A stretch of 64,000 bases of DNA, taken from positions 189,593-253,592 of the IMG/VR virus record IMGVR_UViG_3300020577_007233, one strand, 5' to 3'. Position 1 is the stretch's first letter. Each line of letters starts with the position of its first letter. This DNA is from a virus. Taxonomy: Duplodnaviria; Heunggongvirae; Uroviricota; Caudoviricetes. Below the pieces are notes generated by a model. That model was not told where the DNA came from. It ran no database searches and saw only the letters and a program-made list of their open reading frames with translations. This document shows positions 6,001-54,395 of this stretch, piece by piece. Both the position numbers and the translations under genes were made by a program.

Positions 6001-6498
6001 TGTTACAAAAACGCCGTTTATCTTTCGCTTGTTAAGTCTATCCATCCAGGCCGTCCAACTTTGGAAATTCTGAAGATATGTTGGATTGGCTGGACTTTGC
6101 TCATACTGAAGGGGAGTGCTATAGCTGCTTGAAAATCCGCCTGGGATGTCGTCAAAGCCAACAAATAGGTCTGAACGACCTCTTGCGTTAGCTCTTGCCT
6201 TACTTTGATCGTATACGCTCTTTATGGCATCTAGAATAGCATCAATCTCTACGTCCGTTATGCCTGCTCTTGCCATTTCGAGATTTGAGCCAGTTTCATT
6301 CCACGCTATAGCGTCATAGCCGCCATCTATGCACGCATCAACTAGCTGATTGATTTTTGTTGTATCAATCGCAAGACTTGTTGTATTTACAAAGGCTCCG
6401 CTTGCTGGGTAAACGGAGAAAAGATTGAAGGCCGAACGGAATTGCGATACACTAGGCTGTCCTAGAAATCCCATTGACTGGAAGAACTTAAACGACAT
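1..6498 (-). CDS. Giant virion structural protein (tail fiber/tailspike-like), N-terminal part only; continues past the window start
   Basis: Hand translation of the minus strand from the ATG at 6498 (RBS GGGAG 10 nt upstream) gives an open frame of more than 2100 aa with no stop before position 1. The ORF track omits it because it has no in-window stop. It contains right-handed beta-helix-like repeats (...NIKILNNNVVARSNLIYTNAVWNLTAPTG...). It also has an internal duplication of a module of about 350 aa (LESYILAYNRTKELLAARGITDVKVGFYLTP and LEQFRSLYNRTKAQLAALGRTDVRVGYYGTP). Confidence 0.7.
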   Translation of the reverse strand, partial: MSFKFFQSMGFLGQPSVSQFRSAFNLFSVYPASGAFVNTTSLAIDTTKINQLVDACIDGGYDAIAWNETGSNLEMARAGITDVEIDAILDAIKSVYDQSKARANARGRSDLFVGFDDIPGGFSSSYSTPLQYEQSPANPTYLQNFQSWTAWMDRLNKRKINGVFVTTPFSASFDFICPKVNGVSGTSSTAVSEWKLFARRTLQEMRSRVAGGKPLYASFASTYDASSYYIGVPISSNHMTEAISLFKTYSDGVVLKGGLGSSYKYGNFRWRPSGANEAADLASWRTISSGSFSLSIAGVRYKITGINTSAALSMTAVASTLQSAIQSKISAGLAGTFDGVYPLPLGTVTVTWNATQKSFLFSMTTNGAATPQPPYLHRNYQGSAFTISSKNDWNSSVAGTDLAVSQFIGDITVNNASAPANKQWVYTNSSSQREWEEYAENQSWWTVFSEQSLLTADIKDFKFFYWSAMSGQPNVTTFRNTYGLEFMNVGGGFSPFTVTSYDPAVLVPILSAGTLTVNDAAINSLISTYLDPSLGDSQSKYYCYDLELYISFMDNTQYSDTIIDNMLESYILAYNRTKELLAARGITDVKVGFYLTPSFKSYYDPVMYHYTRGNNSTELTDYDTWQNKYRRINLRKSGSSYITKKFSDNADFVTCEVYPFYGENDIYDDAYFKENILQAVRYVAGNKPLYVFIESAFHPSSAWNGKVVSGNYMRKTVSWVKRIADGCVLWTAYRPSYRGARQRHFMTASGGPPSVPTKSLSDWQTITNGCFSYSAGGLRHSVTGVNFSSATSVGGSESTSVANIIEKAFNDDLYYLNTFYYGSPATTIPGLVFSVPYQLGTVVVNYNSDTSNNSPNSYSRVPCFEISYTDPSLVCPPDFNSYNGREHAYCFTYTASASLPGGATDIGTADWIGTYTYTDQEYDSNYYSGADFNSDEFNNGWVINTNWFHAYSSMALAHKYSKERSLYITESINNWTGKPTFTEMKAVNNIDRAYTAYTGEGWAQFTDSYIAAHIAQCLSQNCTLFVWDVEGDYCNVTTTAVWSFGVSEAQADANLEQFRSLYNRTKAQLAALGRTDVRVGYYGTPFAANTYYGALYWADPVTYAAHATAGAQFANSLVRTNQRYSNGTYVTTPFEDYNDFYAPSFYPQYGGWNAADIQEADAIKGAMTKIIEVYGHNRPIYPFVMPTFFEAGALNPLTGMVHKGTLAQRLNRQCFESEADGAIMWYGVRASTRYTNHRFTPTAVKTIPQWQAITNGCFVLGVDCFPVMVTGLNFSAVASMNDVCSVIQNGINAKIATITINPSAYGVWWTGSPTAPRNIGDVTVTWDNATSKFIMNSARGTAKTPSGHNFPPDFEKSFFVIKAWADWGSSHGALPGTDLGTAEWIGNHSVWTDATIAATDNTTEYERWAEGSEWWNSYKSFAYGTFGTNLSNRVVPHIEISETSGEAPFTVHVNASASWFNGIDPQDCVFEWDFGDPNPTSSVANRTYISDHRVNNDCDANGSPYRATSLSSKQRGINAAYTYYHNNNGTPFTITLKVWHNGVASDTIVKRVTISNPVVNNYPTVVTGQWTKVQIMANNLSPSGTAYPNAFQTLASAISWMNASKPEGKVVFEFLSGALFGLVNFPISAKVTITKPNVIFKGLNQNLAYIEADGSFSRPSATSLIEISPTASNVHFMDMAFGKTSESASTSNLIGCTIKPPAQGSMSFRNITFTRCSFVSLHQAVKSEHFVSGLYFNQCLSQQTKIKTFDLIGQSVVMNACNHSKVNTTQVIGTHNQTDCIVHFGSSSGMAELFSMNFCDFRYNGELGSNSSAGSVYLQNARYVTVYGSVLHSGSNYVDDSFAVRFDSNIINTGGYDYGVIVKAPISDITFASNRFNIHSRGNNCGVLRFAGTSGLINNIKILNNNVVARSNLIYTNAVWNLTAPTGTAIADSVFVNNLNVENSGICMLRWVSVGSSTSTQFSDFSHNIWPLRLGSMDFAYIGGSVKTWDQWAASAVDSNSQQVDVIVEDMIGMYANKLLIGTYPQIQSNSYFHPAVSKDFNDEARNTSTYYGVGAARPLVSFTPSASSFTVTSSTVSRTRVAEAGWTPPAAQNIFVSITDPATQTFDSNFQLVPKPVQKKINANVRNLVEFTPQEANTSHCRALRAKLDINQNTAYKNVSFGVID

Positions 6499-6622
6499 AT
6501 CCTTTTCACTCCCACTCACGTTGGTTTTTATATGTGAGGATGGTATAAAACAATAATACCATAGATTACTCTATGGTACTATCGGATTTACCAATCTCCT
6601 CTATGTACTCAGCAAAATCGAA

Positions 6623-7093
6623 TCAATTACCAGAAGAACCAAAACCACCAATTCCTCTAGCCGTTTGACCCAACTCGGCAACTTCAATAAGTGTTGCCTC
6701 AACAGTTTGAGAAACCACAAGCTGAGCTATTTTGTCGCCCTTCTTGTATTTCTTCAACGGAACAGGAAGAGTTGCAAAAACAGTTCCTGTCTTATCCTGA
6801 TTGAATCTTAATGCTGGCTTAAACCTCACCAGAAGCTCTCCTCGGTATCCGTTATCAACAAGACCAACACTGTTCGCTAGCACTAGGTCGTATTTGCTGA
6901 TACTTGAACGAGGCCAAATTTCAGTGTTGTAACCCTTTGGTGGCTCAATACTAAGACCTGTCTTGTACTGTATGAAACCTTCTTGATCAACAACACCGTC
7001 GTCAATAGCAACAAGATCAAATCCTGCGTCAGAGACATTAGCTTTTTGAGGAATTACCGCTTCAGATGAAAGTTTTTTTACCGAAATATGCAT
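6623..7093 (-). CDS. dut: dUTP diphosphatase (dUTPase)
   Basis: 156 aa carrying the dUTPase motifs AGFDL, GLVDNGYRGEL and a C-terminal RGIGGFGSSG. Confidence 0.85.
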   Translation of the reverse strand: MHISVKKLSSEAVIPQKANVSDAGFDLVAIDDGVVDQEGFIQYKTGLSIEPPKGYNTEIWPRSSISKYDLVLANSVGLVDNGYRGELLVRFKPALRFNQDKTGTVFATLPVPLKKYKKGDKIAQLVVSQTVEATLIEVAELGQTARGIGGFGSSGN

Positions 7094-21376: not shown

Positions 21377-21796
21377 ATGACAAAGCATTTCTGTCCAATT
21401 TGCTCTTCTAAAGAAGTTTCAATAGTAAATAGTCATCTCTTTTCATCTATAAGATGCAAAGAGTGTCTTCATGAAACAATCTTAGCAAAAGAAGAGAATT
21501 TGCATAAATTCGTAGCCAAAACGCTCAAGAACAACAATATATGCCCCAAGGCGTCTCCTCAAGCCGAAGACATTATCGAATATTCATACTGCCCATATTG
21601 GGCAACAATGAAAGCGTTTAGAAATCTTTCAACTATACGCATAAGAAAAAGAACGCCCAACCTACTAATGATTCAAACGTTCTCTGATAAAAGCGTGAAA
21701 ATCTTTGCCAACAACCTCAAGGTTCCGTTTACAATGACTGAGACTGAAGATTTCTACTACATAGACATTCAGTTATCGTCTTCATCTTCGTCGTAA
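21377..21796 (+). CDS. Cys-rich (zinc-binding) hypothetical protein
   Basis: CPICSS...CKEC pairs. Confidence 0.4.
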   Translation: MTKHFCPICSSKEVSIVNSHLFSSIRCKECLHETILAKEENLHKFVAKTLKNNNICPKASPQAEDIIEYSYCPYWATMKAFRNLSTIRIRKRTPNLLMIQTFSDKSVKIFANNLKVPFTMTETEDFYYIDIQLSSSSSS

Positions 21797-22125
21797 CTAT
21801 CTGAGTATATGTCATCTTCCTCAGACTTTAGTATGTATCTGTTTTGCCAGTCGGTTTCAAGAAAACCAACATGCTCATCTGTTATGAACTCAAGAACTAT
21901 ATCATTGATGTAAAAAGCCATCTCTTCATTAGTTGTGTAGCATGATACTTCTGGAATACCAACACAACCTCGTCTTTCAGAGAAATAGCCAAGGACTAGA
22001 TTGTTGATAGCTTTGGACTTTTCTAACCCTGACTGCTCAGAACCCTCCAATTGAAGAAAGTAGTCCCGCAACCGGATCAAAGCAACAATGAATTCTTTTT
22101 CCCACTCTATTCTTGTTTTAGCCAT
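21769..22125 (-). CDS. Hypothetical acidic protein
   Basis: 118-aa ORF with an acidic C-terminus. Confidence 0.4.
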   Translation of the reverse strand: MAKTRIEWEKEFIVALIRLRDYFLQLEGSEQSGLEKSKAINNLVLGYFSERRGCVGIPEVSCYTTNEEMAFYINDIVLEFITDEHVGFLETDWQNRYILKSEEDDIYSDSYDEDEDDN

Positions 22126-23355: not shown

Positions 23356-24027
23356 ATGAGAAGGCAGTTCGACTTTATCATTACTGGAACGCCGTTTTGC
23401 GGGTATGCTGCAACCGCTAAAGTTCTCAACGATATTGGTATTGGCTGTTCTGTTGAAAAGAGCATAAACGATTGGTGGGCAATGATGGACCTTGATCCCA
23501 AGAACGAAATCGAAGGCGATTGCTCTTGGTTTGCAGCGCCATATCTTGACTTTTTCAAAGACTCAACAATCATTCTTCATCAAACAGTAAATCCCTCAAG
23601 GTTTATTGAAGAGGCTGAACGATCTAGGCTTTTTAACAACTGGGAAACAGACTATCTCTACTCGCACAAAACAGACTTCTCTGCCAATAAGTTCATCAAG
23701 TACCAGGGACGGGAATGGAATTGGCCCAACAGCACAAGAGAGCGAATAGAACTCTTCTACACTAAGTGGAACCTTCTAATAGAAGAAAAGGCCCAAGGCA
23801 AAAAGTACATGAGATATCGAGTAGAAGACTTCGGAGAAGAACTTCTTGAAAGAATCTGCTGGTTTCTAGGTACTAGCTTCTCAGGAAAGAACGTGGGAAG
23901 ATTCGCAAAAAGTTCTTCCCTAGACATAAGCAAAGCTCTTGAAACCAATCAAGAACTCAAGAACATTTGCTTTAGATACGATTATTTGCCGTTCTCTGAC
24001 AAGAGCTTGCCATTCAATACAGCATAA
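23356..24027 (+). CDS. Hypothetical protein
   Basis: 223-aa ORF that abuts the previous gene. Confidence 0.4.
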   Translation: MRRQFDFIITGTPFCGYAATAKVLNDIGIGCSVEKSINDWWAMMDLDPKNEIEGDCSWFAAPYLDFFKDSTIILHQTVNPSRFIEEAERSRLFNNWETDYLYSHKTDFSANKFIKYQGREWNWPNSTRERIELFYTKWNLLIEEKAQGKKYMRYRVEDFGEELLERICWFLGTSFSGKNVGRFAKSSSLDISKALETNQELKNICFRYDYLPFSDKSLPFNTA

Positions 24028-24566
24028 CATAGCTCAACAAAACGAAGCATTGAAAAATCTGATTTCATTTTGTTTATATCCTTATGAACCCATTGTATAT
24101 TTGACTTTGTGTAGCCTTTAGAAGAATCTATCCTATCCAAAGAAGCTGTTGTATACCCGTTTTTATGTTCTTCTATAGAATTTGCAAAAACAATAGGCAA
24201 TCCCGATATTCCACATTTCTTATTTTGTTTCTCGTATATTGATTGTAAATAGTCTCTGTCTATATCTTTATCAAACTCTATTTTTCTTAACTTTGCGCTG
24301 TGTTTAATATGAGCATAAAAAACGCTAGATATTTTCCCATTTAGTTTGCGTTCTTTTGCTTTACACTTTCTGCATTGACTACTTTTACCAGACAATAAAT
24401 GATCTTGTATAACAATTCTTTTTAACCCACACTGACACTGGCATTCCCATTGTTGTGTATATCTTGTTTTTTGGCGTCTTTTATCAAAAGACTCTAAAGG
24501 CTCTACCTTTTTCAGAACACTCCATTTCCCGTATTTTTTGCCCAATAAATTCTTAGCCTTACTCAC
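23982..24566 (-). CDS. HNH homing-endonuclease-like protein with N-terminal Cys cluster
   Basis: An HNH core (TASLDRIDSSKGYTKSNIQWVHKDINKMK) plus CQCQCG...CRKC. Confidence 0.7.
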   Translation of the reverse strand: MSKAKNLLGKKYGKWSVLKKVEPLESFDKRRQKTRYTQQWECQCQCGLKRIVIQDHLLSGKSSQCRKCKAKERKLNGKISSVFYAHIKHSAKLRKIEFDKDIDRDYLQSIYEKQNKKCGISGLPIVFANSIEEHKNGYTTASLDRIDSSKGYTKSNIQWVHKDINKMKSDFSMLRFVELCYAVLNGKLLSENGK

Positions 24567-25077: not shown

Positions 25078-25125
25078 GATTTTGTTCCAGTTTGCCGATA
25101 CCTTCTTTGGTTAGTCGCAAAAAGG

Positions 25126-25923
25126 TTGCGACTTGTTCAAAGGAGTATAGGTATGCTTACAGTTCGTTGTCCAATTAGGTTTCCACAATTAGTCTTCGTC
25201 GAAGAGATCAACTTCCCAACAAATGACAGTAAGGCACCGCTTTATCGTCTTGACTGGTCGAAGTTTGAAGACCACCACAAAGAAAAACATGAGGCTTGGA
25301 ACAAGAAATGGTATCCATCGCAAACGATACCAGCGGCAGATTTCGTGCCTGAAGAGTACAGAACTATTGACTCCATGCACTATTTGCTTGATGGCAAGTA
25401 TATAGATGAGATCAATCGTTGCTTCCGTCAAGCATTCGATGAGTGGCAACAAAACAAACCGTTTGATACAGTCATAAGATTAGTTACTCTTGATATACAA
25501 AAAGCCTACTTGTATGTAGGGTTCAAGCTGCTTTGCGACTGTATGTTCAGCAAGAAAACAGATTTCTATGAAAGAGGAGTTCTAAAGACTATTGCTCCTC
25601 ACTATTTTCTTGTCCGTTTTTGGCAGCACAATGTTGGAACGAGTCACGTTTACGATTTCTCGATGCTTAACAAGCTAAAAGAAAGAAAGTCCTCAGACGT
25701 TGATGGTATCGTAATAAACAACTTCGTAAATGAAGTTGAAAAGAAGATACTTGAAAGAGAAACCAACGTTTATTCTCTAATAGTACCCGAAAACCAAAGG
25801 GCTGACATAGATAAGAGTCTGGAAGCTGTAAAACAAGAGTTCTACGAACAGGGTATCATCTCGTATTCAAACTCTCGCGGTTCAACAGGTTCGAAAAACG
25901 CAAAATCAAAGGCTAAGAAGTAA
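25126..25923 (+). CDS. Hypothetical protein
   Basis: 265-aa ORF followed by a terminator hairpin. Confidence 0.45.
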   Translation: MRLVQRSIGMLTVRCPIRFPQLVFVEEINFPTNDSKAPLYRLDWSKFEDHHKEKHEAWNKKWYPSQTIPAADFVPEEYRTIDSMHYLLDGKYIDEINRCFRQAFDEWQQNKPFDTVIRLVTLDIQKAYLYVGFKLLCDCMFSKKTDFYERGVLKTIAPHYFLVRFWQHNVGTSHVYDFSMLNKLKERKSSDVDGIVINNFVNEVEKKILERETNVYSLIVPENQRADIDKSLEAVKQEFYEQGIISYSNSRGSTGSKNAKSKAKK

Positions 25924-25927: not shown

Positions 25928-25958
25928 GAAGGCATCCGAAAGGGTGCCTTCTTATTTT
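25928..25958 (+). terminator. Intrinsic terminator hairpin (may also act on the convergent minus-strand gene)
   Basis: Stem GAAGGCA-loop-TGCCTTC followed by TTATTTT. Confidence 0.6.
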
Positions 25959-26143
25959 CCCTTATTGTTTTGTTGTTGATTTACGAAACCCCAAAGACTT
26001 TTGGGATGTTCGTTTTTATTGCTTTGGTTTAGATGCTTGCGAAGCGTTTCCCAATTGATGTTTGATGGCGTGTTCTGATTAACCTTGTTTATCGTTGAAC
26101 GGTTAAGGTTTCTAACTTCTTCATGCTGGTCTTTGTTGTCCAT
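25952..26143 (-). CDS. Hypothetical N/Q-rich small protein
   Basis: 63 aa. A strong RBS, GGAG, sits 7 nt before the ATG. Confidence 0.4.
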   Translation of the reverse strand: MDNKDQHEEVRNLNRSTINKVNQNTPSNINWETLRKHLNQSNKNEHPKSLWGFVNQQQNNKGK

Positions 26144-26848
26144 AGAATTTCTCCTTATACCATCAATTCGTCATTATTGTAAGAATTCCTACACCAATGT
26201 TTATTCGATTTTTCTTTATAGGCGCACTTTTTCATTGATGCAGGGAGTTGTCTTCCATTGCGTTGTTGCTTTGTTGCTTCATTGCAATATTGGCTCGCCT
26301 TGCGGCTCGCAGTTGTCATCATGCGTTGCATGATTCCAACTCAACATTTTCTTATTGCTTGTTGCTCAATGTTTCTTTGCAATGCGCCAATGCGCTTTGC
26401 GCCATGCGCAAGCCCCTTTCAGTCGATTCTAGAATCTTCAATAAAAAGAAACCAGAATCAACTGAAAGTTTCCCTACCAGCCAAGGTAGGTTGCTAAGTT
26501 GATCTTTTAAGGTCGGCGTTAAGACTTAGCTTTCATTCAGTCTACCGTCTTCTTACGTCTAAATAGCTCATGAAATGGGGGACAAAGTGAGCTAAGCAAC
26601 TAGCCTATTACGGCTGAAGAAACAGAAAACAGAGCTTCTATATTGACTGTTACCGCCCTTTGTGGGGCAATCTCAACTCTTCGACGGAGGCCAGAGTCAG
26701 CCTAATCATTTGTCCAGCACCCATAGGTGAGCGGTAGGGATGATTACCCTTTTGACAATCAGAGGCTGTTTTAGAAGAAGACCGCCTCTTGCTTAGAGCG
26801 AGGTATCGGCACAATCCTGTCTAAAACTCCACCTTCACACCAAAAACA

Positions 26849-26875
26849 AAAACCCCGCAAACAGCGGGGTTGTGT
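26849..26875 (-). terminator. Intrinsic terminator after the acidic-peptide gene
   Basis: On the minus strand, the hairpin CCCCGCTGTTTGCGGGG is followed by TTTTTGTTTTT. Confidence 0.65.
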
Positions 26876-27037
26876 TTAGATATCGTCATCGTCTTCGTCG
26901 TCATCAAATTCGTCGTAACTGTCGTCGTCACCAAAGTCATCAAACTCTTCGTCATCTTCGAAGTCGTCGAGTTCATCATCAAACTCGGAATCTTCCATCT
27001 CTGCGTCATTCTCTTCATCAAAAGGCTTCTTTCCCAT
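26876..27037 (-). CDS. 53-aa hyper-acidic protein (about 60% Asp/Glu)
   Basis: Hand translation gives MGKKPFDEENDAEMEDSEFDDELDDFEDDEEFDDFGDDDSYDEFDDDEDDDDI. A GGAG RBS lies 7 nt upstream. It is absent from the ORF track because it is under 60 aa. Confidence 0.5.
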   Translation of the reverse strand: MGKKPFDEENDAEMEDSEFDDELDDFEDDEEFDDFGDDDSYDEFDDDEDDDDI

Positions 27038-27049
27038 TGCTTTCTCCTT

Positions 27050-27769
27050 TCAGTCTTGTTGTAACCGGGACAACTCTCCATTGATATTTACAAGAGCAAC
27101 AGAGTTCAGTTTTTCGAATTGCGGGCTTAGGAAGATTTTTCCTTTCTTCATTTCCAAGAATTTCTTAAGGAAATCGGCTCTTCCTTTTCTCCATTGTTCG
27201 TCTGTATACATGCTGTATTCAGCACGAACCCCTTCAACAAGTTTCATGTAGGCATCAAAATCGTCAACCCCGAACCGTTGAAGATCAACGTCCACCAACA
27301 AATTTGCTTCTAAATCTTCCGGCGGCGGAGGGCTGTTGTGTTTGGTAAAGAGAATCAGTTCCGAGATTCTAGAAGCTTGAACAGAAGTCCAACCTGCGTC
27401 CATTAGATCGTTATAGCAGAGAACTGCGCTGCTCTTTTCGTTATCTATATTGCTAACGGCTTTATATACTCTATCGTGGTTGAACCATGCAAGAAGAACA
27501 TGGTTCATGTTCCCCTTAAAAGAAGACTCAACATCGACTAGGGCCTTCACTCCTTCTCTGATGTGTTCAAAATCATGCCACTTTCTAGGAGTCCCTTCAG
27601 CAATTGGTTCCTCATATTCCCTAGTAAGGACATTGTACATTCTTACGGTGTGACTTATTTTGTTGAGATGCAATCCTGCATTCACTGCTCTATCAAAAAC
27701 GTAGTACAAGAAACCGTTTTCGTAAAACGTTTCAATAAGAGGGTGAGATTTCTTTTCAAGCATTCTCAT
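27050..27769 (-). CDS. HD-domain-like phosphohydrolase (tentative)
   Basis: H...HD...D spacing (ISHTVR; AWFNHDRVY; DVDLQRFGVDD). Its start overlaps the stop of the CoaD-like gene. Confidence 0.4.
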   Translation of the reverse strand: MRMLEKKSHPLIETFYENGFLYYVFDRAVNAGLHLNKISHTVRMYNVLTREYEEPIAEGTPRKWHDFEHIREGVKALVDVESSFKGNMNHVLLAWFNHDRVYKAVSNIDNEKSSAVLCYNDLMDAGWTSVQASRISELILFTKHNSPPPPEDLEANLLVDVDLQRFGVDDFDAYMKLVEGVRAEYSMYTDEQWRKGRADFLKKFLEMKKGKIFLSPQFEKLNSVALVNINGELSRLQQD

Positions 27770-28275
27770 TTTCTGTGTTTTGATTCAAGTGCTTCAGCGA
27801 TTCGTTCAGGAACGTACTGCCTTATTTCTTTTTGCCAACCTTCGTAACCGATAAGGCTTTTCACGAAGCTGCTGGAAACAACAGAAAGATGATGAGGCGG
27901 CGTTACCATGATTGTCTCAACATCAAAACCCCTACTGTTTGCCATTTTCCTGTTGATCTCAGCCATTGTTGATTCAACAGAAAAGTCTTCGGCATTTCGG
28001 ACTCCTCTCAACAAGTGAGTCGCTCTTTCTTGCCGGATAAAATCAACCAAGTAGTTCGGTCCAATCGTCTTGACTACAGCGCCTTTGGGAACGCAAGACG
28101 TAGCCATAGACGCTCTTTCTTCGGCTGTAAAGAGGTATCTTCCAACCTTGCTGGGATTTACGGCAATACAGACAATAAGCTCATCAAAAAGCTCAAGGCC
28201 TTGCTGAACAACCCAAAGATGACCAAAGGTTATGGGGTCAAGACTTGCGGCGTAAATGGCTTTTGTTCTGCTCAT
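27766..28275 (-). CDS. coaD: Phosphopantetheine adenylyltransferase-like nucleotidyltransferase (CoaD family)
   Basis: Collinear with E. coli CoaD: AIYAASLDPITFGH matches AIYPGTFDPITNGH. Further matches are IAVNPSK...FTAEERA, ATHLLRGVRNAEDF and VSSSFVKSL. Confidence 0.75.
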   Translation of the reverse strand: MSRTKAIYAASLDPITFGHLWVVQQGLELFDELIVCIAVNPSKVGRYLFTAEERASMATSCVPKGAVVKTIGPNYLVDFIRQERATHLLRGVRNAEDFSVESTMAEINRKMANSRGFDVETIMVTPPHHLSVVSSSFVKSLIGYEGWQKEIRQYVPERIAEALESKHRK

Positions 28276-29224: not shown

Positions 29225-29733
29225 GACACTCTCCCATATTCGTTGATTGCAACAGAATCGAGATTGTTGGTAACTTCTTTTTCGCAACTCGCAAAAAAGA
29301 TACACAGAGATCTCATTAACATCTGCTTAGCCGCTTCGTCTGAGTTTGTTCTAAGTAGCTCTATCTTTGAGTATTTGGAAGTCGCAAAGATAGTGTCTTC
29401 AACAAGTTCCAGTTTAACTGTAACACCAGAACACAGGAACTCTTGAAGTTTTTCAGAGAAGTCAGAATCAATGTCGCTTTCGCAATTAACCTTTTTCCCA
29501 AGATAAGCCAAACCAGCGGCAACAATTGTCTGCGCCCTAGTCTTGTCAAAATATGAAGGAGCAACAAGAAAAACCAACGGATTGTGGCCCGTTTTCTCTG
29601 AATAGACCTTCAAAACCATGTTTTTGACAGACGAGCAGATGCTGAACTCGTTTCGAGCAGCAAAAGCATCTTTATAGGCGTAAATCAGCTTGTTTAGGCT
29701 TTCAAAACGGTCTTTGGTCATATATCGCCTCAA
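29221..29733 (-). CDS. Hypothetical protein (operon partner)
   Basis: 170 aa with 4-nt overlaps on both ends. Confidence 0.45.
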   Translation of the reverse strand: MRRYMTKDRFESLNKLIYAYKDAFAARNEFSICSSVKNMVLKVYSEKTGHNPLVFLVAPSYFDKTRAQTIVAAGLAYLGKKVNCESDIDSDFSEKLQEFLCSGVTVKLELVEDTIFATSKYSKIELLRTNSDEAAKQMLMRSLCIFFASCEKEVTNNLDSVAINEYGRVS

Positions 29734-30734
29734 TCAACAAGGGGTTGACCCTTGATGACTGGGATATCGAACAAACAGTCCTCTCCATACAAGTCTCTCA
29801 CGTGTTCAATCATTACGGAGCTATGGCTTGTCACAATAAACTGCTTGTCAGGAAAGCACTCGATAAGCTTGTCTATCATTTTTCTGTGTCTCTTGAAATA
29901 CACATGCATTTCAATATTGTCAACCATTACGATATCGCTTTTGTCTATTAGCGACGGGTCGCAAAGGCTTCTTAGGAGAGTTGCTATCTTCTTTTCGCCA
30001 GCACTCATTGATTTGTAGTGAACTTTGACGTTTCCTTTTTCGATAACGAAACCTTGATAGAAGGCATTCTTGTCTTCTTTTACGCTTTGAGTGATGTTAT
30101 CGTAGATCTCGTTTTTGGTCATGGTAGGCGCTTCTATCTTTTCTTTGCCGTAGTTTTTAGCAAGAGCCTTGATAGCCTCTCTTAGGGACTCGTTCCCTCC
30201 TTCGACACCTTCTGATGATACAAGCTTTTCTGCGTAACACTTGTACCCGTATATGGCTCTCGCCAAATCAAGAAAGAGTTCGATTCTTTCTGCTGGTATT
30301 TGGAACTTACTTGTATTGAGAGGGTTGTCTGCGTCAATAAACACTGAGTTTATTGCCCCTCTGTCGATTAGGTCGTTTTGAATGACATCATCATCCTTAA
30401 CGTGAACTATCAGATCTTTTTGACCATCATAGAAAATGCCCTTAATTTCCATTTGGTCCGAAAACTTAGTGAATCCAGCATAGCTTGGATCGTAATCTGG
30501 ATGATATTGAAGCTTTCTGAGCAGAAGGTTATCGTCAGAAGGGTTTCTTTTTGCGTAGGCTTTTGACCTGCCAAGGAGACCGATAGCATTCAATCCTGTG
30601 CTTTTGCCGCATCCGTTTGGACCAAAGAACATATTTACAGGTTTGAATGAACCATCTGCTCTTGTAAAATCAAAAACACAAGGATCTTGAAAGCCAGCAT
30701 AGTTACGAAGAAGCAAGGACTTAATTTTGAGCAT
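29730..30734 (-). CDS. ABC-type (AAA_21/SMC-RecF-like) ATPase
   Basis: Walker A FGPNGCGKST, signature-like MSAGEKK, Walker B IVMVDNIE and H-loop TSHS. The start is set at MLKIKSL, where a GGGAGG RBS lies 8 nt upstream. Confidence 0.7.
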   Translation of the reverse strand: MLKIKSLLLRNYAGFQDPCVFDFTRADGSFKPVNMFFGPNGCGKSTGLNAIGLLGRSKAYAKRNPSDDNLLLRKLQYHPDYDPSYAGFTKFSDQMEIKGIFYDGQKDLIVHVKDDDVIQNDLIDRGAINSVFIDADNPLNTSKFQIPAERIELFLDLARAIYGYKCYAEKLVSSEGVEGGNESLREAIKALAKNYGKEKIEAPTMTKNEIYDNITQSVKEDKNAFYQGFVIEKGNVKVHYKSMSAGEKKIATLLRSLCDPSLIDKSDIVMVDNIEMHVYFKRHRKMIDKLIECFPDKQFIVTSHSSVMIEHVRDLYGEDCLFDIPVIKGQPLVD

Positions 30735-30922
30735 GAAAAAACCTCCCGGTAATGCTGTTATCGGCATACCGAGAGGTCTGGAAAGAAAAGACAAGCTAGC
30801 GACTACCGAAAATTCTCTTCCATCCCCTTGCTATCTTAAAGCATGCCCAAGAGATTATCGCGAGGATAACCATTCCCATAACGTGCTTTTGATGCATTAG
30901 GCTGCAACGTCGAGATTCTTCC

Positions 30923-40271: not shown

Positions 40272-42401
40272 TTAGCCCTCTCGTAGAAAATCTTGAGGCT
40301 TGTTAATCCTGGCATACCAGCCAGATGCCCTGGTCCTAGGACGTACTACCTTCTTTTTGATTTTATTAGCCTTTTCCTCTTCTTTTCTTTTGTATTCCAT
40401 ATGTCTAACTACCTGAAGCATCTCTGGAGTGTAATCAGTTGTTTTTGCAAAAAACTTGACTATCCAAGAAGGCACCTTGAAGTTTTGCTTTGTTATTTCT
40501 CTTCTTATATGCTCTTCAACGTCCATGTCCATGTTGTAAGGGAAAGAATCTCTTCTTGCTTCGGTCTCTGCGTAATCTCTTGCCTTTTGAGACTCTTCTT
40601 CCCATTCGGAATAAGCAGCTTGATATTCTTTCGTGGTAAGAAAGTCGCTTTCGTCAGGCTCCGGTCCAACACCAAGATCGCTATCGTCCCAATAGAAGTT
40701 CGAATCAAACTCCTCATTGTTCTTTTGTATCTTTTCTCTAGCAACACCTATTTGAGAAATCGCATCTATCGCCCTGCTCATGTACTTTCTTTGAAGTTCA
40801 GGAGGCAATTCATCAATACTCTTAATTCCGCTCGGAAATACTCTTTCTGATTGTCTGTTCTCAAAAGCTTGCATTCTAATCTGTTCTCTTTGAGCGACAG
40901 GATCGAACGGCATTCCCATGTTCTCAAGCCTTTGTCTTACGATCTTTTCGGCTCCAGGCAAATAGTCCTTAAGCATTGTGTCCATGTACTCTGGTCGAGT
41001 CTTCTTGTAATCCGTTGGATAGTGCTTTTTGTCTCCGTTAGCAATCTGAGTTGCTTTGGCTTTCATCTTTCGTACATCAAAGTCACCAGCCTTGATGCCC
41101 GCAATATCAGACAACACGGCTGTTCTACCAAGAACCTCTCCACAACCTCTTGCTGCATAACCAGAACCATCTCTAGACCTTCTGCTGACATAGTTTTCAA
41201 CAGCATCATAAGCGTCATCAAAAACCCACTTCTCCAAAGGCGTTGGTCCATACATCCCGTTTCCATAGATGATTTCTTCCAAATCTTCATCTAAAGAATT
41301 ACTTCTTCCAAGGTCGTAATCAAACTCGCCTCTCATTCTTTTGGCGTTGTCCTCAAACCCATCAATAGCCATAACTCTTTCAGAAGCATACTGAAGAGCG
41401 TCTTCTCCTCCAACCTTATTGGCGTCCATCATAAACTGAGGATCATCTTTAAGTTGATCGGAAGCCAAAACGGTTGCTCTAGGATTCTCTTTGATGGCCT
41501 TGAAAAGAAGAATCTGATCGTTTGCACTTTCCTCCGTAGAAAACTGCATCAACATCTTGTAAGGAATGCCAAGCTTCTTGGCGTACCTTTCTCCAAGAAT
41601 ATCAAACAAACCTCTAGGCAAAGAAGTTGGCTCGTCATTGATATCCATAACTTGATTTAGTTGAGGGTCCATCTGTAGTACAGGTCTACCACCTTTAGTC
41701 ACGATGTAAAGATATCCATACTCTTTGATATAGCGGTCTGCTTGACAGTGAGGATAATCAGCCCTTGTACACCATTTCGTTCCTACTCCAAGCTTGGCTA
41801 CAGACTTCGGATCACTGACTTGATAAACCATAGAACCGTCTTCAAGGCTCTTAACAACTTTGACGCCTGGCATTCTAGCTGGATCGTTTTCTATTACACC
41901 AGCTTTAGGTCCGCTTTCAACGTACTTTTCAAGCTCTCGCTCAAGCGCAAGCAAATCAGGATACTTGTTGATATCCTTTTCCAAAGGAATGCCAGGTCTA
42001 TTCCTGAGCATCTGAAAGTTCTTCAAAGCAGCAAACATTCTAGGACCGTCTTCTGCTGGTATGAACGAAAATCTTGGATTGTTAAGTAGGCCGTTTACCC
42101 AAGGAACAAACTCCTTGGGAATCTTCGCATAAAAGACACCCTTTTCCCCAGGTTTCTTGAATCTCTCCTCAAGAACAGGCATCGCCACTTGTTTAGGTTG
42201 TTTTTCAGGAATTGGCTGAGTTAGAAGAGTTTGTATTCTTCTTCGAAGCCAAGATTCGTCAAGGCCAGGAGTTCTGTTAAGCTCAGTACCTATGGCTTTT
42301 TGCACATGCTTTGGTAAAGTCATAACGTAACTAATAAAGTCAGGGCTGTAACCCTGTTGAGTAAGAAAGACATTAAGTTGCGCAAAAACATACCAACTCA
42401 T
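40272..42401 (-). CDS. Large hypothetical protein (709 aa), paralog-domain protein A
   Basis: It shares a segment with the next gene (KLGVGTKWCTRADYPH versus ELGKGTKWCTNADVDG). Confidence 0.5.
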   Translation of the reverse strand: MSWYVFAQLNVFLTQQGYSPDFISYVMTLPKHVQKAIGTELNRTPGLDESWLRRRIQTLLTQPIPEKQPKQVAMPVLEERFKKPGEKGVFYAKIPKEFVPWVNGLLNNPRFSFIPAEDGPRMFAALKNFQMLRNRPGIPLEKDINKYPDLLALERELEKYVESGPKAGVIENDPARMPGVKVVKSLEDGSMVYQVSDPKSVAKLGVGTKWCTRADYPHCQADRYIKEYGYLYIVTKGGRPVLQMDPQLNQVMDINDEPTSLPRGLFDILGERYAKKLGIPYKMLMQFSTEESANDQILLFKAIKENPRATVLASDQLKDDPQFMMDANKVGGEDALQYASERVMAIDGFEDNAKRMRGEFDYDLGRSNSLDEDLEEIIYGNGMYGPTPLEKWVFDDAYDAVENYVSRRSRDGSGYAARGCGEVLGRTAVLSDIAGIKAGDFDVRKMKAKATQIANGDKKHYPTDYKKTRPEYMDTMLKDYLPGAEKIVRQRLENMGMPFDPVAQREQIRMQAFENRQSERVFPSGIKSIDELPPELQRKYMSRAIDAISQIGVAREKIQKNNEEFDSNFYWDDSDLGVGPEPDESDFLTTKEYQAAYSEWEEESQKARDYAETEARRDSFPYNMDMDVEEHIRREITKQNFKVPSWIVKFFAKTTDYTPEMLQVVRHMEYKRKEEEKANKIKKKVVRPRTRASGWYARINKPQDFLREG

Positions 42402-44740
42402 TTGTTTTTTCCAATAACTTGAATCTGCTCAGGAAACCAAGCAACAACCCATTGTTCATTTTTCTTGCTTGGGTCTATGTTGTTTCCGTGATTTACAACG
42501 ATACCGTCATATCCTGTTGCCTTGCTAATGAACCTAAGAACCTTTTCAAAGTTACTCTTATTGAAAAGATCGTACAGAATGAAAGCCGAAGACTTACCGA
42601 TGTATACTCTTGCCATACTCTCAAAAACAACCCTTTCGCCTTCAGTTGCAACATCTCCAAAGTTGTCTAGAATCTGCTTGCCTTCTAACTGTACGGCCAA
42701 CTTTAGAAGACCCCTTGTTTGATTAGCGGTTAGAGAAGGAAAAATATCAAAAGCACTTGACTGTTCAATATGTCCAGACGAAATTTGAATAGGCTTCTTT
42801 AGGTTTACCTTTGCCTGCATAACTCCAGGAGACGGTCCTCCTTGTCCATAATTGCCTGCTGTTTCTCGTCTGCTTGTGAAATAAAAACCAGGACCGTATT
42901 GGTCATTGCCTTGTCCTATGTAGTCATAAACAAAGCCTCTTTCTTGTATAGAGTTTTGGTCGCCAGTTCCGTGAAATACATTGTACTCAGGAAAGTCCGC
43001 TCTTTTGTACCAACCTCTTTTCGAGGTGCTTACACCAAGAAAACCAAAGTTTGATTGATAGTAATTGGAAACAGAGCTATCTTTGCTTGAAAGAATGAGG
43101 CGTTCCATTTCGGGCCATCTTGCTTTCATTATATGAACAGCATACTGACCGGCTGCCCAGCCGTTCTTAAGTTCCATGATTCTTTTTTCAAGCTCAGTCC
43201 ATCTCTGTCTTACAACATCTCTTGCGTAATACAACGCTTCGCTTAAGCCTCCCCATCTGTCATTGAGTAAGTAGTTCTCAACTTCAGGCCATCTTCCCTT
43301 GATAACTTCTTTGGCATATTCATACATATCCCAGATCTTGCCGCTATCAATAATGGCTTTTTCAAGCTCAGGCCATCTGAGGTTACAATTCTTCGCATAC
43401 TCTATAGCGTATTCCTGCGAGTAGTGCTGCTTGCCAGTTTCTAAGAGATAGTCTTCAAACCTCTTCTCTGCTCTTTGAGAACCATTCAAATACCAAAGAT
43501 ACCCAACAAGCTCTTCAGCACGATTCGGGTTCTTCATTATGGCCGCTTCATACTCGGGCCAAGGAGTGAAATCTCCACCTCCTGGCTTGCCCTGTCCATA
43601 ATTGTAGTCCGAATATCTGTCTTTCCAGTATTCAAAAGCATATGATGAATTGATGATTTTGGCTTCTTGATTTGGGTCTCTCCAACGAAGACCTTGCTGA
43701 CTAACTGCGTCTAGGTACTCTGCTATCCTGTTACCATCTGTAACTCCATAGTTCTTGAGTTTTTTCGCGTCAGAAGGAAGTTGGTTAAAGATGATCTTAT
43801 CTTCAACAGCCTTAAGTCTGCCAAATTTCTTTGCGTATTCTAGCATGTCATCAAAAGCATAACTTGGGAATTTGCCATCGTCTTCTTCTTTAACCTTTTC
43901 CATGAAGAAGTTCGCAAGATCCACATCTGCTCCCTCATAAGAAATGTTGAAAGCGTAGTTCTGAAGGAAGTCGTCCTTTTTGATGCTGCCTCTTTGTATA
44001 AGCTCTCTAATCAGAGAAATGAAAGATGGAGTAGGCTTTTTGATGGGCCTGTCAAGAATATCCATGACCTGATCAAGAGAAGACGTTGCTTGAGCATACT
44101 TTTCCCACTTGCCGCCATTGTTATGCAGAAACAACAAAAGAGGACCGCCCTCTAAATACATTTGAGCGTTTTCGTAGCCGTCAACATCTGCGTTTGTACA
44201 CCACTTGGTTCCCTTACCAAGCTCACAAACAGCTTCAGGAGTTGTCATCTCAAGAACTCGCCATTCGTTATCTCGAAAAATCTCCCTACTACCCTGCATC
44301 TTGATGTTTTTGGCAACCTGTCTTTTGCTTGCTTCGTCCTTGACGCCAAGAACCTTTCCAACAGCAACTTCAAGATCTCCAAGAGAAGGATATTGCTGTA
44401 GGTTTTTAAGCTCAAACTTGTTGTTCTGTTGAGTAAAGATAGTTAGAGCATTCGTAAGTCTTCCAAGGTCTTCTGGTAGCCTTATTTGACCGTTAACAAG
44501 CCACCCATATATGAAGAACAGAAAACGATTGGGGATTCTACCTTGAACAGTATGAAGGTATGCCTTGTAGTTGTTGAGATGGTACTCAAGCCTCGAAGCT
44601 CCTTTTTCGTTTGTAAGCTTTGATAGCTCAACCGCCGTTCCACGGTCCCAGTCGTTTAGGTTTCTTAAATAGGTTTCAGCGCTTGGGCTAAACCCCAACG
44701 CTTGATAGTTGATATCAGCTATGCGAACGAACCAATTCAC
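42398..44740 (-). CDS. Large protein (780 aa) with shared GTKWCT domain, four tandem RWPExE helical repeats and C-terminal ART/PARP-like motif block
   Basis: Four repeats in a row: NLRWPELEKAII, KGRWPEVENYLL, RQRWTELEKRIM and KARWPEMERLIL. The C-terminal NVFHGTGDQNSIQERGF...GPGFYFTS...FILYD resembles the PARP/Tpt1 H-G-[ST] ... Y-F-x signature. Confidence 0.5.
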   Translation of the reverse strand: MNWFVRIADINYQALGFSPSAETYLRNLNDWDRGTAVELSKLTNEKGASRLEYHLNNYKAYLHTVQGRIPNRFLFFIYGWLVNGQIRLPEDLGRLTNALTIFTQQNNKFELKNLQQYPSLGDLEVAVGKVLGVKDEASKRQVAKNIKMQGSREIFRDNEWRVLEMTTPEAVCELGKGTKWCTNADVDGYENAQMYLEGGPLLLFLHNNGGKWEKYAQATSSLDQVMDILDRPIKKPTPSFISLIRELIQRGSIKKDDFLQNYAFNISYEGADVDLANFFMEKVKEEDDGKFPSYAFDDMLEYAKKFGRLKAVEDKIIFNQLPSDAKKLKNYGVTDGNRIAEYLDAVSQQGLRWRDPNQEAKIINSSYAFEYWKDRYSDYNYGQGKPGGGDFTPWPEYEAAIMKNPNRAEELVGYLWYLNGSQRAEKRFEDYLLETGKQHYSQEYAIEYAKNCNLRWPELEKAIIDSGKIWDMYEYAKEVIKGRWPEVENYLLNDRWGGLSEALYYARDVVRQRWTELEKRIMELKNGWAAGQYAVHIMKARWPEMERLILSSKDSSVSNYYQSNFGFLGVSTSKRGWYKRADFPEYNVFHGTGDQNSIQERGFVYDYIGQGNDQYGPGFYFTSRRETAGNYGQGGPSPGVMQAKVNLKKPIQISSGHIEQSSAFDIFPSLTANQTRGLLKLAVQLEGKQILDNFGDVATEGERVVFESMARVYIGKSSAFILYDLFNKSNFEKVLRFISKATGYDGIVVNHGNNIDPSKKNEQWVVAWFPEQIQVIGKNK

Positions 44741-54219: not shown

Positions 54220-54395
54220 TCTTCACACTAATAGGAAAAAGGCCGTAGCTGTGTATACTTTAGGCTACCACTGGCGAATATAGATATCTTACTTTTCCTG
54301 AAGACCCCCCCTATGGGGTACGGGGTACTCCTTTTATCATTATGAGTGGGAAATAACAACTCCCATTCTTCCACTGCGCCAGGCCCCCACCCCTC

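What the first reader, a model, noticed from the sequence alone, without database searches (positions are those of the whole stretch)
26876..27037. Unannotated 53-aa hyper-acidic protein, a possible DNA mimic or anti-restriction factor
The ORF has a good RBS and a terminator directly after it. About 60% of residues are Asp or Glu, in DD/EE/F-D arrays. Acidic proteins of this kind in phages, such as Ocr and ArdA-like proteins, mimic DNA and block restriction or host DNA-binding proteins. It is missed by the ORF track because it is under 60 aa.
Basis: seen in the sequence. Interest (0 to 1): 0.55.

Follow-up and report, generated by a model that had tools for sequence, protein, structure and literature searches.

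The report
Tiny hyper-acidic disordered jumbo-phage protein
A real 53-residue gene in an uncultured aquatic jumbo phage encodes a floppy protein that is about 60% aspartate and glutamate; related phages keep its charge but not its sequence, so it probably imitates nucleic acid or an "acidic tail" to block a DNA- or RNA-binding protein, though nothing shows it is an anti-restriction factor.

Summary
Window 26876..27037 (minus strand) is a 53-aa ORF with 62% Asp+Glu and net charge about -31. An AAGGAG Shine-Dalgarno lies 6 nt upstream, and a hairpin terminator starts 4 nt after the stop.

It is a genuine gene. Public gene callers already call it. Between three close lineages, synonymous sites are saturated (pS 0.85-0.99) while pN is 0.09-0.22, and all indels are in frame. 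In lineages whose neighbouring genes are only 34-41% (HD) or 51-70% (CoaD) identical, the same slot holds a 45-67-aa ORF with 59-71% D/E. One lineage of eight has lost it. Composition, size and position are conserved; sequence is not.

AlphaFold gives no fold. There is no match in Pfam, PHROGs, PADLOC, NCBIfam, PDB or 1.84 billion representative proteins.

It differs from folded DNA mimics such as Ocr and gp5.9 (25-29% D/E). It resembles the disordered acidic tail of T7 gp2.5 and the acidic domain of SPO1 Gp44. My best reading is a flexible polyanionic nucleic-acid or acidic-tail mimic, which is inferred, not shown. Anti-restriction is untested and unsupported.

In passing: directly downstream lies a roughly 450-620-nt structured RNA with strong covariation and no Rfam family.

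The parts
26876..27037 (-). CDS of the 53-aa hyper-acidic protein (ATG 27037..27035, TAA 26878..26876)
   Evidence: Composition is. Gene calls with the identical product appear on six contigs. Between lineages, differences sit mainly at third codon positions ([10,8,24] and [3,4,18]), pS is 0.85-0.99 against pN 0.09-0.22, and all indels are in frame. Acidic ORFs occupy the same slot in deep lineages.
27044..27049 (-). Shine-Dalgarno AAGGAG, 6-nt spacer to the ATG
   Evidence: Read directly. AAGGAG is kept in L007, L018, L028, L030, L031 and L033.
26841..26871 (-). Intrinsic terminator-like hairpin (8-bp stem with 6 GC pairs, 5-nt loop) plus T-tract
   Evidence: Found in the scan. The stem is invariant while the loop varies in L007 and L018 (TAACT, TGACT). 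A comparable hairpin is present in L031. It is absent in L028, L030 and L033, where the stop codon abuts the downstream RNA.
27050..27769 (-). Upstream cistron: 239-aa HD-type phosphohydrolase (phrog_19425). Its stop lies 12 nt before the acidic ORF's ATG, and it always precedes the acidic ORF.
   Evidence: Matches phrog_19425 at 2.9e-18. The H..H and HD motifs are invariant in alignment A7. Synteny is shown.
27766..28275 (-). CoaD-like pantetheine-phosphate adenylyltransferase, same operon
   Evidence: TIGR01510 scores 131.7 bits against a cut-off of 103.3. PF01467 also matches.
29730..30794 (-). PtuA/AriA-like ABC/SMC-type ATPase, first recognisable gene of the conserved block (ATPase - 170 aa - 304 aa - CoaD - HD - acidic ORF)
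   Evidence: Family matches. The block is conserved in all lineages.
26392..26843 (-). Adjacent feature, not part of the protein: the covariation-supported core of a conserved structured non-coding RNA. It begins with UUUGGUG right after the terminator.

Best explanation
The ORF is a translated gene and the last cistron of a conserved jumbo-phage operon (ABC-ATPase, two unknown proteins, CoaD, HD phosphohydrolase, acidic ORF). Its product is an intrinsically disordered polyanion of 45-67 residues with net charge -27 to -45. A hydrophobic or aromatic residue occurs every 3-8 positions. There are one to three basic residues, at the N-terminus in 7 of 8 variants, and usually a hydrophobic last residue after an acidic run.

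Selection acts on charge density, size and the sprinkling of hydrophobic anchors, not on a defined sequence or fold. The most likely mode of action is flexible electrostatic mimicry. The chain lies along the positively charged nucleic-acid-binding surface of a target protein, from host or phage. Its Asp/Glu carboxylates stand in for phosphates, and its Phe/Tyr/Leu/Ile side chains, including the C-terminal one, fit into base-stacking or tail-binding pockets. This would compete with ssDNA or RNA, or with SSB-type acidic tails.

Shown: gene reality, purifying selection, conservation of composition across deep lineages, predicted disorder, and absence from every known family.

Inferred: binding to a basic surface, competition with nucleic acid, and the identity of the target, which is unknown.
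For: Gene reality:
- SD, ATG and terminator are in place.
- Public gene callers call it.
- pS is 0.85-0.99 against pN 0.09-0.22, differences concentrate at third codon positions, and all indels are in frame.

Conserved composition without conserved sequence:
- ORFs of 45, 48, 48, 51, 51, 53, 65 and 67 aa with 59-71% D/E sit directly after the HD gene. This holds in lineages whose HD proteins are only 34-41% identical and whose CoaD proteins are 51-70% identical.
- It is the most divergent stretch at DNA level in an 8.6-kb comparison (identity 0.49-0.68), yet stays acidic.

Disorder:
- AF2 gives pLDDT 62, pTM 0.15 and no secondary-structure element.
- Only 17-25% of residues are hydrophobic.

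Precedents:
- SPO1 Gp44 residues 56-122 are 57% D/E and disordered. They were proposed to mimic ssDNA and interact with RNAP beta/beta' in a two-hybrid assay (PMC8208478).
- The T7 gp2.5 tail is 58% D/E over its last 26 residues and ends EDGDF. It competes with ssDNA for the OB cleft and docks on the polymerase basic patch (PMC10359462 and PMC12339929).
- Here 7 of 8 variants end DDDDI, DEDDI, EDDDF, DEDEL, DDISL or DDDDL.

Context:
- The genomic neighbourhood is DNA and nucleotide metabolism, not virion structure.
Against: - There is no experimental or co-variation evidence for any partner.
- No homologue of known function exists. HMMER's composition-bias correction and the absence of these tiny proteins from one collection make the negative searches weak.
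- One lineage (L027) has lost the ORF, keeping only a ...FEPFYDDDECQAPS extension on the HD protein. It is therefore dispensable there.
- The N-terminal KKPFDEEND motif is conserved only among close lineages.
- Extreme polyanions can have other roles, such as cation or polyamine binding, chaperoning basic proteins, or acting as a regulatory subunit.
- No strongly basic protein is encoded immediately beside it. The HD neighbour has pI 5.8.
Confidence: 0.45

Rival explanations
1. Free-standing SSB-type acidic tail, which is the most specific form of the mimic idea. The protein would be a trans-acting copy of the disordered acidic C-terminal tail of ssDNA-binding proteins. It would dock through its terminal hydrophobic residue and preceding Asp run into the tail-binding pockets or basic patches of replication, recombination or repair proteins, or into the OB cleft of an SSB. 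This would either hijack or block the SSB interactome.
For: - The T7 gp2.5 tail ASKPRDEESWDEDDEESEEADEDGDF is 58% D/E, and gp4 ends NDTDF.
- The variants here end EDDDF, EDDDF, DDDDI, DEDDI, DDDDL, DEDEL and DDISL.
- The gp2.5 tail is disordered, competes with ssDNA and binds the polymerase basic patch. Its C-terminal Phe is essential according to paper titles cited in PMC12339929.
- The gene sits among helicase, RNR, ThyX, RNase T and DHH genes.
Against: - The resemblance is compositional. No statistic separates it from any D/E-rich tail.
- One variant (L031) ends ...LLEIDED rather than in a hydrophobic residue.
- The terminal residue varies between I, F and L, whereas the gp2.5 Phe is reported as critical.
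- No SSB or polymerase of this phage was identified in the window, so no cognate partner can be named.
Confidence: 0.18
2. Ocr/ArdA-style anti-restriction or anti-BREX factor. The protein would imitate dsDNA and titrate type I R-M or BREX complexes.
For: It is small, extremely acidic and phage-encoded, all properties associated with DNA mimicry (PMC9836394). The same window carries an ART-PolyVal protein typical of counter-defence arsenals.
Against: - There is no match to the Ocr or ArdA Pfam models or to any PHROG.
- Ocr is 117 aa, folded, 29% D/E and 45% hydrophobic. This protein is 53 aa, 62% D/E and 19% hydrophobic residues beyond the start Met, or 23% on the same residue count used for Ocr, with no predicted structure.
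- Free sequence drift and indels between lineages fit poorly with a fixed array of charges spaced like B-DNA phosphates.
- It is not at a genome end or in an early-injected position that can be recognised. It is the last gene of a metabolic-looking operon.
Confidence: 0.1
3. Dedicated partner of its own operon. It would be a regulatory or inhibitory subunit, an antitoxin-like element or an assembly chaperone for one of the co-transcribed proteins (HD phosphohydrolase, the 304-aa or 170-aa unknowns, or the PtuA/AriA-like ATPase), or for a very basic phage protein.
For: - The gene order HD then acidic ORF is strict, with a short gap (12 nt in the window), across lineages at 34-41% HD identity.
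- The ATPase resembles those of the Septu and PARIS defence systems.
- A protein with net charge about +21 (23982..24566) and a 136-aa protein of pI 9.95 lie within a few kb.
Against: - The HD, 304-aa and ATPase proteins are themselves acidic or neutral (pI 5.4-6.4).
- L027 keeps the whole operon without the acidic ORF.
- Nothing indicates toxicity of the neighbours.
Confidence: 0.15
4. Cis-acting ORF. Translation of an Asp/Glu-codon-rich leader-like frame would matter, for example for termination, read-through or folding of the structured RNA that starts just downstream, and the peptide itself would be irrelevant.
For: - In L028, L030 and L033 the stop codon abuts the conserved UUUGGUG or UUCGUG start of the downstream RNA with no terminator.
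- There is a weak Trp_leader-like Rfam hit at 26845..26939 with E 0.88.
Against: - That Rfam hit is far below gathering score (18.5 against 41 bits).
- The ORF is 45-67 codons, much longer than attenuator leaders.
- Protein-level constraint is visible: 11 N-terminal residues are invariant through synonymous changes, and pN is much lower than pS.
- Selection keeps acidity using four different codons.
- L027 keeps the RNA without the ORF.
Confidence: 0.06
5. Bulk polyanion with a non-mimic role. It would sequester Mg2+, Ca2+ or polyamines, or act as a solubilising or entropic shield during infection.
For: Only charge density and length are conserved over deep divergence. The net charge of -27 to -45 in about 50 residues would bind multivalent cations.
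Against: Regularly spaced aromatic and aliphatic residues and the hydrophobic C-terminus are kept, which suggests protein docking. A single small protein is a poor stoichiometric sink for millimolar cations.
Confidence: 0.05

Closest known systems
Acidic C-terminal tail of phage/bacterial ssDNA-binding proteins (T7 gp2.5, also T7 gp4 C-terminus, E. coli SSB-Ct)
   Same: Both are disordered and have about 58-62% D/E with interspersed aromatic residues. Both end in an acidic run followed by a hydrophobic residue: gp2.5 ends ...EADEDGDF, and here the endings are ...EDDDF...DDDDI or ...DDDDL. The tail is known to compete with ssDNA and to dock on basic patches.
   Different: Here the 'tail' is an independent 45-67-aa protein with its own RBS, not an appendage of an OB-fold domain. 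It is about twice as long. There is no sequence homology, and partner binding is untested.
SPO1 Gp44, central disordered acidic domain (residues 56-122)
   Same: Both come from phages. The Gp44 domain is 57% D/E with no basic residues, is experimentally disordered, was proposed to mimic ssDNA, and contacts RNAP beta/beta' (PMC8208478).
   Different: Gp44 is a 27-kDa three-domain protein. Its acidic segment is flanked by a folded DNA-binding N-domain and a C-terminal region, both needed for activity. The protein here is the acidic segment alone. No homology is detectable.
Folded phage DNA mimics: T7 Ocr, ArdA, T7 gp5.9, lambda Gam
   Same: All are small, acidic and phage-encoded. gp5.9 is almost the same length at 52 aa.
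   Different: These are folded, dimeric and helical, with 25-29% D/E and 37-45% hydrophobic residues (PMC9836394). The protein here is 59-71% D/E and 17-25% hydrophobic, with no predicted structure. There are no HMM matches.
Eukaryotic small acidic IDPs DSS1/Sem1 and CSNAP; D/E-repeat autoinhibitory regions
   Same: DSS1 and CSNAP are small, highly acidic disordered proteins (PMC8442969; listed abstract only). DSS1 is reported to shut down the DNA binding of BRCA2 subdomains (PMC11329725). D/E repeats compete with DNA on DNA-binding domains (PMC10250230). That DSS1 and CSNAP are about 57-70 residues and carry aromatic residues is from my own knowledge, not from a paper read here.
   Different: They belong to a different domain of life and share no homology. 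Their acidity is lower than here.

Membership tests
Ocr (T7 gp0.3; Pfam Ocr family) | Sequence match to the family HMM | tested here: not met
   The Pfam-A scan of the 53-aa protein returned 0 families at E<=0.01. PHROGs also returned 0.
Ocr (T7 gp0.3; Pfam Ocr family) | Folded helical dimer of about 117 aa that displays a fixed B-DNA-like array of carboxylates | tested here: not met
   AF2 gives pLDDT 62, pTM 0.15 and no helices of at least 4 residues. The protein is 62% D/E and 19% hydrophobic residues beyond the start Met, or 23% on the same residue count used for Ocr (AVILMFWYC incl. Met1), against 29% and 45% in Ocr. Length and sequence drift freely between lineages.
Ocr / ArdA (function) | Inhibits type I restriction-modification (or BREX) in vivo or in vitro | not testable with these tools
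   This needs plating-efficiency or binding assays.
ArdA (Pfam ArdA family) | Sequence match to the family HMM; three-domain protein of about 165 aa | tested here: not met
   No Pfam hit, and the length is 53 aa.
T7 gp5.9-like RecBCD inhibitor | Parallel coiled-coil dimer of about 52 aa with a heptad hydrophobic core | tested here: not met
   No PHROG or Pfam hit and no predicted helix. Hydrophobic spacing is irregular (8,5,4,3,6,3,6,3,9) and is shifted by 3-, 5- and 8-residue indels between lineages. gp5.9 is only 25% D/E.
SSB-type acidic C-terminal tail (functional class, not a homologous family) | Disordered segment rich in D/E | tested here: met
   The variants are 59-71% D/E and no structure is predicted. 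The gp2.5 tail is 58% D/E.
SSB-type acidic C-terminal tail (functional class, not a homologous family) | Terminal hydrophobic or aromatic residue directly after acidic residues | tested here: met
   Seven of 8 variants end in I, I, F, F, L, L or L after a D/E run. L031 ends ...LLEIDED.
SSB-type acidic C-terminal tail (functional class, not a homologous family) | Covalently attached to an OB-fold ssDNA-binding domain | tested here: not met
   It is a separate cistron with its own SD and ATG, placed after an HD phosphohydrolase gene.
SSB-type acidic C-terminal tail (functional class, not a homologous family) | Binds replication or repair partners, or the OB cleft, in competition with ssDNA | not testable with these tools
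   This needs binding assays or multimer structure prediction.
SPO1 Gp44-like RNAP inhibitor | N-terminal folded DNA-binding domain plus acidic disordered middle domain plus C-terminal region | tested here: not met
   Only an acidic segment is present in the 53 aa. The architecture of Gp44 is taken from PMC8208478.
Acyl carrier protein (considered because CoaD and an HD enzyme are adjacent) | Conserved phosphopantetheinylated Ser (DSL motif) in a four-helix bundle of about 75-80 aa | tested here: not met
   Ser40 is absent from L018 and not alignable in deep lineages. There is no PP-binding Pfam hit and no helices are predicted.
Attenuator leader peptide (Rfam Trp_leader etc.) | Covariance-model score at or above gathering; short leader with regulatory codons and alternative terminator/antiterminator | tested here: not met
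   Trp_leader scores 18.5 bits against a gathering score of 41, with E 0.88. Protein-level constraint is present.

The most novel reading that the evidence does not exclude
The protein is the founding member of an undescribed class of phage effector. It would be an entirely disordered polyanion selected for composition, acting as an 'acidic tail in trans'. It would dock through its C-terminal hydrophobic residue and aromatic anchors onto the SSB-tail or ssDNA-binding sites of host replication, repair or defence proteins. Its sequence would be free to drift, which would explain why homology searches cannot see it. It sits beside, and in some lineages is probably co-transcribed with, a new large structured RNA.
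Probability: 0.15. Interest if true: 0.7.

Novelty: new variant of a known kind. Interest (0 to 1): 0.45.

Why it matters
Small phage proteins are a large, poorly charted pool of host-takeover and counter-defence factors. Those known to imitate DNA are folded proteins that can be found by homology or structure. This case shows a gene on which selection preserves only charge density, length, a few hydrophobic anchors and genomic position. Public gene callers do call it.

If it proves to be a trans-acting acidic-tail or ssDNA mimic, it would give a 53-residue peptide, short enough for chemical synthesis, that blocks a nucleic-acid-binding protein. It would also justify composition-plus-synteny screens for similar effectors in other phages.

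The follow-up also uncovered a covariation-supported, Rfam-unknown RNA of about 450-620 nt next to the gene. That RNA may be of greater interest than the protein.

Tried and rejected
- **Sequence homology for the 53-aa protein.** The search for homologous proteins found nothing, and phmmer against 1.84 billion representatives gave 0 hits. PDB returned only a chance hit at E 0.2. Pfam, PHROGs, PADLOC and NCBIfam found nothing. These negatives are weak: the exact sequences are not in the 15-billion-protein collection, and HMMER corrects for biased composition.
- **Back-translated N-terminal motif searches.** IMG/VR gave 0 hits twice and GTDB genomes gave 0. Metagenomes gave one new lineage, L018, its fragment L019, and one false hit, L017.
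- **Strain-level variants L003-L006 as evidence of selection.** Rejected. Their differences are confined to a mosaic patch at 27434..27770, and the non-coding DNA is equally identical.
- **Distant CoaD loci in IMG/VR (L021-L025) and phage NCTB (L020).** They show no synteny and no acidic ORF, so they are uninformative.
- **Openness of the reading frame as evidence.** Rejected. Antisense and other frames are also open, a by-product of GAN repeats. The codon-position bias is what discriminates.
- **Simple DNA tandem repeat.** TRF finds only weak 15-nt and 27-nt periodicities (2.3 copies, 75-84% matches). This does not explain the conservation.
- **ACP-like carrier.** Suggested by the adjacent CoaD and HD genes, but rejected because no Ser is conserved.
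- **Attenuator leader.** Rejected.
- **Fold search.** Not run, because the model has no confident structure.
- **A basic partner encoded next door.** None is adjacent.
- **Apparent ORF desert at window 1..6600.** This was an artefact of the ORF lister. The region is one giant minus-strand ORF of at least 2190 aa that runs off the window.

Full report
**Observation**

Window 26876..27037 carries, on the minus strand, an ATG-initiated ORF of 53 codons: MGKKPFDEENDAEMEDSEFDDELDDFEDDEEFDDFGDDDSYDEFDDDEDDDDI.
- It has 22 Asp and 11 Glu (62%), two Lys at positions 3-4, seven aromatic residues and a net charge near -31.
- AAGGAG lies at 27049..27044, six bases before the ATG. It directly follows the TGA stop of the upstream 239-aa gene, so the two cistrons are 12 nt apart.
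- Four bases after the TAA stop comes an 8-bp GC-rich hairpin followed by TTTGTTTTTG (26871..26841).
- The ORF is a clear outlier. Of 663 ORFs of at least 30 aa in the window, the next most acidic has 26% D/E. Twenty shuffles of the window never exceeded 21% in an ORF of at least 45 aa.

The only qualifications are the strand (minus) and that 'unannotated' applies to the 60-aa ORF track. Public gene calls contain this exact product on six metagenome contigs.

**Context**

The window is from an uncultured phage.
- The neighbouring 239-aa protein occurs on a 256,820-bp contig.
- The window encodes ribonucleotide reductase, ThyX, SNF2-like and UvrD-like helicases, a DHH phosphoesterase, an ART-PolyVal protein and peptide deformylase.
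- There is no nucleotide match in 50,697 phage records.
- The samples named in the contig records are aquatic metagenomes.
- The acidic ORF is the last cistron of a minus-strand block: PtuA/AriA-like ABC ATPase, 170 aa, 304 aa, CoaD (TIGR01510 above cut-off), HD-type phosphohydrolase (phrog_19425), acidic ORF.

**Is it a gene?**

Strain-level contigs (95.6-100% identical overall) are uninformative. Their differences are confined to a mosaic patch in the HD gene, and the adjacent non-coding DNA is just as invariant.

Three more distant lineages found through the HD neighbour and a motif scan are informative: L009-type (51 aa), L007 (48 aa) and L018 (48 aa).
- Between the window type, L007 and L018, synonymous sites are saturated (pS 0.85-0.99) while pN is 0.09-0.22.
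- Differences fall 10/8/24 and 3/4/18 on codon positions 1/2/3.
- Every indel is a multiple of three.
- The SD, the ATG and the terminator stem are kept while the loop varies.
- The first 11 residues (M-G/A-KKPFDEEND) are invariant through synonymous changes.
- Other frames are also open, which is a by-product of GAN repeats, so it is the codon-position pattern that identifies the frame.

**Deep conservation**

Homologues of the CoaD gene at 70, 68, 63, 60 and 51% identity led to five further lineages with the same gene order. Their HD proteins are only 34-41% identical to the window's.

In four of the five, the slot right after the HD gene again holds a small ORF with an AAGGAG SD and extreme acidity:

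| Lineage | Length | D/E |
|---|---|---|
| L031 | 67 aa | 70% |
| L028 | 45 aa | 64% |
| L030 | 65 aa | 60% |
| L033 | 51 aa | 71% |

These ORFs cannot be aligned with the window's protein. They share these features:
- length of 45-67 aa and net charge of -27 to -45;
- 17-25% hydrophobic residues spaced 3-8 apart;
- basic residues almost only at the N-terminus;
- a hydrophobic last residue after an acidic run in 7 of 8 variants.

In L027 the ORF is gone. The HD protein carries a 14-residue extension ending ...FEPFYDDDECQAPS, which looks like a remnant.

At the DNA level the ORF is the least conserved 200 nt of an 8.6-kb comparison (0.49-0.68 identity). Selection therefore maintains composition and architecture, not sequence.

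**What it is not**

No family model matches it (Pfam, PHROGs, PADLOC, NCBIfam). Nothing matches in PDB sequences beyond a chance hit or among 1.84 billion representative proteins. These searches are weakened by composition-bias correction and by the absence of such tiny proteins from one collection.

AlphaFold2 predicts no structure: pLDDT 62, pTM 0.15, no secondary-structure elements.

Measured on T7 itself, the folded mimics differ in kind:
- Ocr is 117 aa, 29% D/E and 45% hydrophobic.
- gp5.9 is 52 aa, 25% D/E and 37% hydrophobic, and forms a coiled-coil dimer (PMC9836394).

Other readings were also rejected:
- An ACP-like role, prompted by the CoaD and HD neighbours, fails because no Ser is conserved.
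- A leader-peptide role fails on the Rfam score (18.5 against 41 bits) and on the protein-level constraint.

**What it most resembles**

- The last 26 residues of T7 gp2.5 (ASKPRDEESWDEDDEESEEADEDGDF) are 58% D/E and end in an acidic run plus Phe. T7 gp4 ends NDTDF. The variants here end EDDDF, DDDDI, DEDDI, DDDDL, DEDEL and DDISL.
- That tail is disordered, competes with ssDNA for the OB domain and binds a basic patch on the polymerase (PMC10359462, PMC12339929).
- SPO1 Gp44 has a 57% D/E disordered domain. It was proposed to mimic ssDNA and interacts with RNAP beta/beta' (PMC8208478).
- Eukaryotic DSS1 and D/E repeats work similarly.

**Mechanism proposed**

The protein is a flexible polyanion that occupies a basic nucleic-acid-binding surface, or an SSB-tail-binding surface, of an unknown host or phage protein. 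Hydrophobic side chains and the C-terminal residue would act as anchors. Gene reality, selection, disorder and the compositional resemblance are shown. Binding, competition and the target are inferred.

Rivals are an SSB-tail decoy in the narrow sense, an Ocr-like anti-restriction factor, a subunit or chaperone for an operon product, a cis-acting ORF, and a cation or polyamine sink. They are weighed in the dedicated fields.

**By-product: a structured RNA downstream**

The stretch between the acidic ORF and the next gene is non-coding, with stops of all three kinds in every frame. Yet it is the best-conserved DNA of the region: 0.90-0.98 identity to L007 at 26400..26799, against 0.67-0.93 for coding DNA.
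- It is present in all eight lineages, including L027.
- It begins with UUUGGUG, immediately after the stop codon in three lineages and after the terminator in the others.
- It contains invariant blocks such as GACUGAAUGAGAG.UAAGU.UUAACGCCGACC.
- RNAalifold predicts 64 pairs, 26 of them with compensatory double changes.
- 91.8% of cells are paired, against 33-45% when partners are slid.
- No shuffle out of 500 reaches the observed number of covarying pairs (26 against 13.4 +/- 2.2) or the covariation score.
- The minus strand folds with z = -3.98.
- No Rfam family matches in any lineage, even at E<=0.1 to 1.
- In window coordinates the supported core is 26843..26392 (-), with a further conserved block at 26238..26226.

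**Verdict**

The finding is real, and the 'mimic' intuition is reasonable in a loose sense. The Ocr/ArdA anti-restriction label has no support. I rate it as a new variant of a known kind (acidic phage mimic or acidic tail), with moderate interest (0.45).

Noticed in passing
window 26392..26843 (-), possibly extending to ~26225: A conserved structured non-coding RNA lies directly downstream of the acidic ORF and is present in all 8 lineages. It is 0.90-0.98 identical where flanking genes are 0.67-0.93. It has 64 predicted pairs, 26 with compensatory changes, and 0 of 500 shuffles reach the observed covariation. The minus-strand MFE z-score is -3.98. There is no Rfam family at gathering score or at E<=0.1-1 in any lineage. 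There is no hit in the phage collection or IMG/VR. It is a candidate new large phage RNA family of unknown function.
   Followed up: partly
L027 5504..6274 and 6275..6925: One lineage (CoaD 70% identical) lacks the acidic ORF. Its HD protein instead has a 14-residue C-terminal extension ...KFEPFYDDDECQAPS that looks like a fused remnant. The downstream RNA is retained.
   Followed up: yes
L028 6509/6510, L030 4911/4912, L033 5475/5476: In three deep lineages there is no terminator hairpin between the acidic ORF's stop codon and the conserved 5' UUUGGUG/UUCGUG of the RNA. The two are therefore probably co-transcribed there. The window, L007, L018 and L031 have a hairpin in between.
   Followed up: partly
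window 27434..27770: Among otherwise near-identical strain variants (L004, L005, L006), almost all substitutions cluster in the N-terminal half of the HD phosphohydrolase gene. This is a sharp mosaic or recombination patch, or a locally diversifying segment.
   Followed up: no
window 25100..25199: The intergenic stretch between the divergently transcribed peptide deformylase and the 265-aa (+) gene is 99% identical to L007, although the flanking genes are 0.74-0.91 identical. It is probably a conserved promoter or regulatory region.
   Followed up: no
window 25952..26143 (-) and 25126..25923 (+): The 63-aa basic, N/Q-rich ORF (its start is ATG in the window and GTG in L009/L013) and the opposite-strand 265-aa gene are present only in the window-type lineages. 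In deep lineages the RNA is followed directly by the deformylase gene.
   Followed up: partly
window ~54200..64000: Base composition shifts abruptly. GC rises from about 0.29-0.45 to 0.50-0.66, with strongly negative AT skew (-0.2 to -0.4). Only short overlapping ORFs appear on both strands, and none has a Pfam hit. Possible explanations are a foreign insert, an assembly join or an unusual coding region.
   Followed up: no
window 1..6570 (-): A single giant open reading frame of at least 2190 codons runs off the start of the window. The ORF lister omits it because it is cut by the window end.
   Followed up: partly
window 21769..22125 (-): A 118-aa ORF with net charge about -17 ends in an acidic tail ...EEDDIYSDSYDEDEDDN. 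It is a second strongly acidic product in the same genome region and has no Pfam hit.
   Followed up: no
window 23982..24566 (-): A 194-aa ORF has net charge about +21 (pI 9.75) and lies 2.3 kb downstream of the acidic gene. It is a candidate nucleic-acid-binding protein and a conceivable partner of a polyanion.
   Followed up: no
window 29730..30794 (-) and 42398..44740 (-): The phage encodes a PtuA/AriA-like ABC ATPase of the kind used by the Septu and PARIS defence systems, at the head of the acidic ORF's operon. It also encodes a 780-aa protein with an ART-PolyVal ADP-ribosyltransferase domain.
   Followed up: no
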